Below are positions 1,856 through 2,150 of a DNA stretch of 42,664 bases, in pieces. The notes beneath the pieces were generated by a model. It searched no databases, was not told the origin of the DNA, and worked only from the letters and a program-made list of their open reading frames with translations. The DNA is from Ginglymostoma cirratum (taxonomy: Eukaryota). How positions within the stretch are numbered: position 1 is the first letter of the stretch; each line of letters starts with the position of its first letter. Location: NCBI GenBank assembly GCA_024137785.1, contig JAHRHZ010000002.1, positions 9,914,694 to 9,957,357 on the forward strand, written 5' to 3'. The position numbers and the translations under genes are program-made.

Positions 1856-2150
1856 TTTGACTTCATGTGGAATTAGAAATTCGTGAGAAGTCACTTTCCA
1901 GCGGAGCGTCTCAGTCTGTGAGCTGCGTCTGGACCGATATTAAAACCCTGCTCCTGTTCAGTCAAACACGTTGATACTGTTTGGACCCAATCAAAATTAA
2001 AAGACTCTTTGAGTCACCAGACTGCGGCATAATAGACTCCGGAAAAAAGATTGAAAACTCACTTCCCCAATAATGCGAACAACCCAATCAGATGAATACT
2101 CCCAAACCTATCATCGGTTGCCGGGAGAATGAGCTGAGCTGCAAGTCGCC
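1856..2150 (-). promoter_or_regulatory. 5' UTR and promoter of gene B with two X-Y modules
   Basis: On the minus strand: CCCGGCAACCGATG (2125-2112) + 20 nt + CTGATTGG (2091-2084); TGACTCA (2016-2010) + 18 nt + ATTGG (1991-1987); AT-rich TATA-like TTTTAATAT near 1937-1945. Confidence 0.75.

What the first reader, a model, noticed from the sequence alone, without database searches (positions are those of the whole stretch)
1987..2150. Class I promoter with two stacked X-Y modules, the distal one class II-like
Seen on the minus strand: CCCGGCAACCGATG + exactly 20 nt + CTGATTGG (2125-2084), then TGACTCA + exactly 18 nt + ATTGG (2016-1987). From my recollection of the human promoters: HLA-DRA has X1 CCTAGCAACAGATG + 20 nt + CTGATTGG (11/14 match here), and HLA-B has X2 TGACGCG + 18 nt + ATTGG. 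The X1 core TCCCGGCAAC is also kept at the equivalent position in gene A (35733-35742), which argues for constraint. Inference: a shark class I gene may have both a CIITA-type and an NLRC5-type enhanceosome platform. This bears on the shared ancestry of class I and class II regulation.
Basis: partly seen in the sequence, partly recalled or inferred. Interest (0 to 1): 0.7.

Follow-up and report, generated by a model that had tools for sequence, protein, structure and literature searches.

The report
Tandem MHC enhancers in shark promoter
A shark non-classical MHC class I gene carries two copies of the MHC regulatory switch in its promoter, the upstream one closely resembling a mouse class II switch, while the neighbouring gene copy has kept the other one better.

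Summary
The motifs and spacings are exact. The window holds two tandem shark class I paralogues; gene A's alpha-1 domain is 98% identical to nurse-shark O19479.

Gene B's distal module is real. It scores 19/20 on a class II X1+Y model, the best site in the window; 0 of 2000 local and 0 of 60 whole-window shuffles reach it. W/S, not X1 or spacing, is what separates CIITA from NLRC5 targets (PMC4374748).

Both paralogues have both modules in one register, but they have decayed in complementary ways. A lost the distal Y and W/S and the proximal X2. B lacks a class I-type proximal S and the downstream CCAAT. A's X1 match fits neutral decay, so it is weak evidence of constraint.

Best reading: an ancestral double-SXY promoter was partitioned after duplication, leaving B driven mainly by a class II-type enhanceosome. 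An intact NLRC5 platform in B is not supported. Function and orthologous conservation of the distal module are untested.

The parts
2140..2162 (-). Gene B distal W/S region, class II-type (S heptamer at 2148-2142, one base further from X1 than in H2-Eb)
2112..2125 (-). Gene B distal X1 box (RFX-type, GGCAAC hexamer 2122-2117)
   Evidence: 11/12 specified positions of class II X1 model
2107..2113 (-). Gene B distal X2 slot, TGATAGG: half-site only, starts TGAT as in H2-Eb, no CRE/AP-1 palindrome
2084..2091 (-). Gene B distal Y box CTGATTGG (inverted CCAAT, NF-Y type)
   Evidence: 8/8
2015..2028 (-). Gene B proximal X1 slot, degenerate (hexamer GCAGTC); no recognisable S upstream
   Evidence: 7/10 to H2-K X1 core, S 2/7
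2010..2016 (-). Gene B proximal X2 box TGACTCA (AP-1/CRE type)
   Evidence: whale-shark model P0015 implies TGACNCA at the same slot
1987..1994 (-). Gene B proximal Y box (ATTGG 1991-1987), 97 bp downstream of distal Y
   Evidence: 7/8 identical to gene A
1980..1984 (-). Gene B remnant of downstream CCAAT box (CCAAA), directly after a 16-bp deletion relative to gene A
1807..1855 (-). Gene B exon 1 coding part: class I leader MIGLIVLGLLCGELFA, intact GT donor; no other exon of this gene found in the window
35728..35741 (-). Gene A distal X1 (core kept)
   Evidence: 9/12 on class II model; 11/14 identical to B
35700..35707 (-). Gene A distal Y slot, decayed (CTGGCTGG; ATTGG lost), same register as B
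35608..35672 (-). Gene A proximal module: S-like CAAACTT (35672-35666), class I-like X1 (GGAGAC 35646-35641), decayed X2 (35637-35631), perfect Y CTGATTGG (35615-35608)
   Evidence: 13/15 on class I model, 1 of 2000 local shuffles; 17/22 with S, 0 of 2000; not exceptional window-wide (11 of 60 and 15 of 60 shuffles reach it)
35585..35589 (-). Gene A downstream CCAAT box, shared with whale-shark model P0015
   Evidence: HPIS in the translated promoter
35404..35452 (-). Gene A exon 1 leader MIGLLVLGLLCGELSA; donor reads GG instead of GT, about 50 bp from an assembly gap
21253..27393 (-). Gene A alpha1 (27393-27133), alpha2 (26926-26657), alpha3 (26416-26159), TM (about 23110-22999) and two cytoplasmic exons; near-identical to nurse shark O19479

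Best explanation
The common ancestor of the two paralogues had two W/S-X1-X2-Y modules in tandem, 92-97 bp apart: a distal class II-type one and a proximal class I-type one followed by a CCAAT box. After duplication they decayed in complementary ways. Gene B kept the distal module intact, plus the proximal X2 and Y. Gene A kept the proximal X1, Y and CCAAT and let the distal W/S and Y go. In gene B the distal module most likely assembles RFX on X1, NF-Y on Y and the W/S factor, and recruits CIITA. The proximal TGACTCA and ATTGG then serve as auxiliary AP-1/CREB and NF-Y sites near the start, not as a full second platform. Predicted result: gene B has class II-like expression (antigen-presenting cells, IFN-gamma inducible) and gene A depends on its proximal module. 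SHOWN: sequence, register, statistics, A/B pattern, and ancestral X2 and CCAAT (indirectly, via one whale-shark protein model). INFERRED from mammalian work: factor binding, CIITA preference, expression pattern.
For: Distal B is the top site in the window, beyond all shuffles. W/S 20/22 to H2-Eb. The S region determines co-activator specificity in mouse reporter swaps (review passages). All four slots are in one register, and three of the top four class II-model hits and three of the top four class I-model hits in the window are these slots. Under neutral decay from a perfect ancestor, B keeping at least 39 of 42 positions has P=0.02, whereas A's 15/20 is as expected. Whale-shark P0015 begins MTHGI, with HGI matching gene A's frame at 35632 (6 occurrences in 85,324 translated positions; chance about 0.002), which fixes TGACNCA at the X2 slot, and continues through the CCAAT. 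So X2 and CCAAT are both ancestral, A lost the first and B the second.
Against: No orthologous DNA for the distal module was obtained (searches gave none). One locus, two paralogues only. S heptamer matches alone are not significant (chance 0.05 for 5/7, 0.25 for 4/7); A's proximal S is 4/7 and A's distal slot scores 5/7 on the same class I S, so the class I-type label for A's proximal S is weak. The distal X1 also fits the class I core (7/10 in B, 8/10 in A). The W/S match rests on one mouse gene and was noticed post hoc. P0015 is a low-quality model and skips the 16 nt that hold Y in gene A, so Y cannot be read there and may be missing. Only the leader of gene B is in the window, so it may be a pseudogene. 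A salmon study argued that IRF1 rather than the enhanceosome drives IFN-gamma induction in its cells. Shark CIITA, NLRC5 and RFX were not examined here.
Confidence: 0.5

Rival explanations
1. Ancestral generic module: the distal element is functional, but class II-likeness is just the ancestral MHC SXY consensus, and sharks do not split CIITA and NLRC5 targets by W/S. The two modules add strength, not two specificities.
For: Identical register of all modules. Salmon b2m has a DRA-like X1 in a class I-pathway gene. B-distal resembles A-proximal (20 of 2000 shuffles), hinting at an old tandem duplication of one module. CIITA also contributes to mammalian class I expression.
Against: The class I-type S is the same in mouse H2-K and salmon b2m, so two S types are old. 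B's W/S follows H2-Eb over 22 nt, not H2-K. The other 3 of 4 distal-proximal comparisons were not significant.
Confidence: 0.25
2. One reading: gene B itself has two working platforms, distal for CIITA and proximal for NLRC5.
For: Proximal X2 + 18 + ATTGG is exact and scores 12/15 (17 of 2000 local shuffles). X2 is ancestral. Y is kept in both paralogues.
Against: Proximal S slot 2/7, with a 2-nt insertion relative to A; X1 hexamer degenerate; CCAAT lost. S is the NLRC5 determinant.
Confidence: 0.15
3. Non-functional relic or chance: the distal module is residual homology with no present role.
For: A/B identity over 2215-1987 is only 140 of 229 positions. A chance X2-18-Y look-alike exists at 2416-2387 inside a retroelement remnant. 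Gene B's integrity is unknown.
Against: Pure chance is excluded. Neutral survival of 39/42 positions has P=0.02 even from a perfect ancestor.
Confidence: 0.1

Closest known systems
MHC class II W/S-X1-X2-Y module (mouse H2-Eb; CIITA enhanceosome)
   Same: Order, orientation and near-identical spacing; X1 10/14, Y 8/8, W/S 20/22, X2 half-site start.
   Different: Sits on a class I gene; S-X and X-Y each 1 nt longer than H2-Eb; lies 233 bp from the ATG with a second module between it and the gene.
MHC class I SXY module (mouse H2-K; NLRC5 enhanceosome)
   Same: X2 + 18 nt + ATTGG in gene B; X1 core 8/10 at the same distance from Y, and S-like element at the same 19-nt offset, in gene A.
   Different: Neither paralogue has all four boxes: B lacks S and a good X1, A lacks X2. 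No canonical ISRE or kappa-B match within 400 bp of either ATG (recalled consensus patterns).
Distal S-Y / XL enhancers of the human class II region
   Same: More than one SXY-type module serving a gene; these bind RFX and CIITA (PMC7866136 passages).
   Different: Those are remote enhancers of class II genes; here the two modules are about 95 bp apart in one class I promoter.
Salmonid class I (UBA) and b2m promoters
   Same: W/S, X2/site alpha and Y/enhancer B reported in fish class I promoters (PMC1971071 passages); b2m has S + X1 at the same offset.
   Different: The passages seen describe a single module with an ISRE; salmon b2m has the H2-K-type S and a 10-nt X1-Y gap.

Membership tests
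MHC class II-type SXY module (gene B distal) | S, X1, X2, Y in fixed order, orientation and spacing | tested here: met
   spacings within 1 nt of H2-Eb
MHC class II-type SXY module (gene B distal) | Class II-type W/S sequence | tested here: met
   20/22 to H2-Eb, by eye, one reference gene; chance at most 3e-5
MHC class II-type SXY module (gene B distal) | CREB/ATF-type X2 site | tested here: inconclusive
   half-site only, like the start of the H2-Eb X2
MHC class II-type SXY module (gene B distal) | RFX/NF-Y binding and CIITA-dependent activation | not testable with these tools
   needs reporter, EMSA or ChIP
NLRC5-type class I SXY module (gene B proximal) | X2 + 18 nt + ATTGG | tested here: met
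NLRC5-type class I SXY module (gene B proximal) | Class I-type S box at canonical distance | tested here: not met
   2/7
NLRC5-type class I SXY module (gene B proximal) | RFX-type X1 | tested here: inconclusive
   7/10 to H2-K core
NLRC5-type class I SXY module (gene A proximal) | S, X1 and Y at canonical spacing | tested here: inconclusive
   X1 8/10 and Y 5/5 significant locally (1 of 2000); S 4/7 is not; X2 decayed
Conserved cis-element | Distal module conserved in paralogue | tested here: not met
   X1 11/14 but Y core and W/S lost; fits neutral decay
Conserved cis-element | Distal module conserved in orthologues | not testable with these tools
   no shark genomic collection available; indirect protein searches gave 0 hits and self only
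Elasmobranch non-classical class I (UBA lineage) | UAA-related sequence with altered peptide-anchor residues (gene A) | tested here: met
   best PDB hit 6LUP; Y59F, T143I, K146R, Y159F read from alignments (numbering recalled); 98% alpha1 identity to O19479
Elasmobranch non-classical class I (UBA lineage) | Named UBA and multicopy cluster in the MHC | tested here: inconclusive
   tandem paralogues fit the multicopy UBA cluster; that O19479 is UBA is recalled and consistent, but no call names it; no UAA outgroup in the tree

The most novel reading that the evidence does not exclude
The ancestral promoter of this shark class I lineage held a class II-type and a class I-type SXY side by side, and duplication partitioned them. 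Gene B is then a class I molecule under CIITA control with class II-like expression. Its 22-bp W/S region, kept between shark and mouse for over 400 million years, is the footprint of the still unidentified W/S-binding factor. The distal module would be either a relic of the state before class I and class II regulation split, or a capture from a class II beta promoter in the same MHC.
Probability: 0.25. Interest if true: 0.8.

Novelty: new variant of a known kind. Interest (0 to 1): 0.55.

Why it matters
[quoted passage not shown] I found no description of it in a cartilaginous-fish promoter, nor of a tandem double module on a class I gene (search listings; open-licence library only; the J Immunol shark class I papers were not seen). 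A near-perfect class II-type W/S-X1-Y in a shark dates that grammar to the base of jawed vertebrates. It offers a natural pair of promoters (A and B) for testing when CIITA and NLRC5 specificity split, and a deeply conserved probe for the W/S factor, which two reviews call unidentified. It also predicts different expression for neighbouring non-classical class I paralogues.

Tried and rejected
Single-motif scans of the window: not enriched over shuffles, so composite spacing-constrained scoring was used.

Gene A's 10-nt X1 match as proof of constraint: rejected. A run of 10 or more arises somewhere in the block in 38% of shuffles (0.005 at a fixed site under background identity), and with probability 0.11 if B is fixed and A neutral.

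Third X2-18-Y site at 2416-2387: rejected as chance. It lies beyond the A/B homology, in sequence that translates like a decayed LINE reverse transcriptase (family label recalled).

A coding explanation for the open frames over the distal module: rejected. The frame is not kept between A and B, and the 75-residue frame had 0 hits among 1.84 billion proteins.

Other gene models extending into the promoter: only P0015 itself among 17 candidates.

Tandem duplication origin of the two modules: 1 of 4 comparisons significant; no tandem repeat called there. Left open.

The W/S region as a repeat: single copy in the window.

Papers without usable shark or class II promoter sequence: PMC2187825, PMC4219347, PMC10751288, PMC7281430 (passages). 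Database accession names for O19479 and P0015 beyond those stayed unchecked. Shark genomic orthologues stayed unchecked; the available genome collection is bacterial and archaeal and was not used.

Full report
CONTEXT. The window holds two tandem minus-strand class I genes. Gene A is complete: leader at 35452, and alpha1, alpha2, alpha3, TM and two cytoplasmic exons between 27393 and 21253. Its domains hit the solved class I structure 6LUP best (that it is nurse-shark UAA is recalled). Its alpha1 is 98% identical to nurse-shark O19479, with an identical leader. Four peptide-anchor residues differ from 6LUP, so it is non-classical. I take it to be the multicopy UBA lineage; the name is recalled and consistent with passages in PMC12562908 and PMC10751288. 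Of gene B only the leader exon (ATG 1855) was found in the window. The two promoters are colinear for about 360 bp upstream of the ATG and are bounded by what look like retroelement remnants.

OBSERVATION. All stated motifs, spacings and coordinates are exact. Single loose motifs are not enriched, but the composite is. On a class II X1+Y model the distal module of B scores 19/20, the best site on either strand; 0 of 2000 promoter shuffles reach it and 60 whole-window shuffles peak at 17. With S it scores 24/27 against a maximum of 21. B's proximal module scores 12/15 on a class I model, significant locally (17 of 2000) but not window-wide (57 of 60 shuffles reach it).

X1 + 20 + CTGATTGG and X2 + 18 + ATTGG are the same geometry, and all four modules (two per gene) share it. 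In Ludigs 2015 (PMC4374748, passages) the X boxes of H2-K and H2-Eb supported NLRC5 equally, and the S region decided specificity. The salmon b2m promoter (PMC7573153 supplement 5, passages) combines the H2-K-type S with an X1 matching the quoted DRA box at 11/14. So neither X1 nor spacing marks a CIITA platform.

WHAT DOES. Upstream of the distal X1, 2162-2140 matches the H2-Eb S region at 20 of 22 bases with one gap (compared by eye). It sits one base further from X1 than in mouse. It is single-copy in the window. This is the feature that makes the module class II-type, with the caveat of one reference gene. B's proximal module has no class I-type S (2/7) and a weak X1.

PARALOGUE COMPARISON. 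Gene A keeps the distal X1 core (11/14 identical) but has lost the distal ATTGG and carries a deletion of 8-10 nt in the W/S-X interval. Identity outside the boxes is 88 of 135 aligned positions, giving a 0.80 chance that a site is unchanged on one lineage. A's distal 15/20 is then as expected without selection (16.0), and the 10-nt run has P=0.11; B keeping 39 of 42 has P=0.02. Conversely A has the best class I-type module in the window (13/15; 1 of 2000 locally, 11 of 60 window-wide), a perfect Y and a downstream CCAAT, but no X2. B has X2 but lost the CCAAT next to a 16-bp deletion.

OUTGROUP GLIMPSE. A whale-shark gene model (P0015, flagged low quality) translates into the promoter. It aligns to gene A over 35607-35405, including the CCAAT. 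Its first residues MTHGI place TGACNCA at the X2 slot (chance about 0.002). X2 and CCAAT are thus both ancestral, and A and B each lost one. The model skips the 16 nt that hold Y, so Y is unreadable or absent there, and it does not reach the distal module. A bamboo-shark model (P0013) matches B's 5' region slightly better than A's, hinting that the A/B split is old. A 15-protein tree (15 of 21 hits; partial and fused entries left out; gene B not placeable) groups O19479 with zebra- and whale-shark proteins at modest support. Two searches for further promoter-spanning proteins found nothing new.

MECHANISM. Most likely (0.5): an ancestral double-SXY promoter was partitioned after duplication. 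Gene B is driven mainly by a class II-type enhanceosome (RFX at X1, NF-Y at Y, W/S factor, CIITA), helped by proximal AP-1/CREB and NF-Y sites; gene A relies on the proximal module. Sequence, statistics and the decay pattern are shown; binding, co-activator choice and expression are inferred from mammals. Against the enhanceosome reading in fish, the salmon study argued for IRF1 as the main driver (passages); I found no canonical ISRE or kappa-B match in either 400-bp promoter.

KNOWN SYSTEMS AND NOVELTY. SXY modules are known on mammalian class I and II genes (PMC1351924, PMC4753418, PMC2278383, PMC7922096, PMC7866136; passages) and salmonid class I genes (PMC1971071, PMC6523485; passages). 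Remote S-Y enhancers serve human class II genes. Eight searches (listings only) showed no shark promoter analysis and no tandem module on a class I gene. The library lacks most subscription papers, including the shark class I papers in J Immunol, and figures and unseen supplements could hold such alignments. The distal module meets the sequence criteria for a class II-type SXY; function is untested. B's proximal module fails the S criterion for the NLRC5 type.

VERDICT. Observation confirmed; interpretation partly supported and revised. New variant of a known kind. Interest 0.55; 0.8 if the partition and CIITA control hold (probability about 0.25).

Noticed in passing
window 35399-35404 (minus): Gene A's exon 1 donor reads GG; the next GT, 4 nt on, would shift the frame into alpha1. 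It lies in a G-rich stretch about 50 bp from a 10-N gap, and the near-identical protein O19479 is intact, so an assembly error is plausible; otherwise A is a pseudogene or null allele.
   Followed up: partly
window 26730-26760 (minus): Gene A alpha2 is one residue shorter than O19479 and differs locally (WDQY-TRKQ v WNQHVANKQ), while alpha1 and alpha3 are 97-98% identical: an allele or close paralogue with variation focused on the alpha2 helix.
   Followed up: no
window 35585-35615 (minus): Gene A has Y and CCAAT as an 8-bp inverted pair 18 nt apart (two NF-Y-type sites); no TATA match in either promoter.
   Followed up: partly
window 2387-2416 (minus): Third X2-like + 18 nt + ATTGG site (1 mismatch) inside a decayed LINE-like reverse-transcriptase remnant; judged chance.
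   Followed up: yes
window 2152-2160 and about 35770-35778 (minus): Both promoters have a TTC-NN-GAA dyad 28-31 nt upstream of the distal X1 hexamer (heat-shock or STAT-like, label recalled); in B it is part of the W/S match, in A it is not the aligned position.
   Followed up: no
window 2059-2066; 35714-35725 (minus): ETS-type GGAAGT once in B between the modules (overlapping an IRF-like GAAGTGA) and twice in tandem in A's distal X-Y spacer, possible replacement sites.
   Followed up: no
window 34346-35345: Penelope-like retroelement remnant (label recalled) in gene A intron 1 next to the gap; A/B intron homology resumes at about 34410-34349 v 1702-1640.
   Followed up: partly
window 4695-5464 and 6822-7567; 32246-32694; 39650-41460: A 780-bp inverted duplication at 82% identity; a 39-bp tandem array with an N gap in gene A intron 1; a 52-bp minisatellite region.
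   Followed up: no
PMC7573153 supplement 5 (salmon b2m promoters): H2-K-type S and DRA-like X1 at canonical offset, but only 10 nt between X1 and Y, one helical turn shorter than usual.
   Followed up: no
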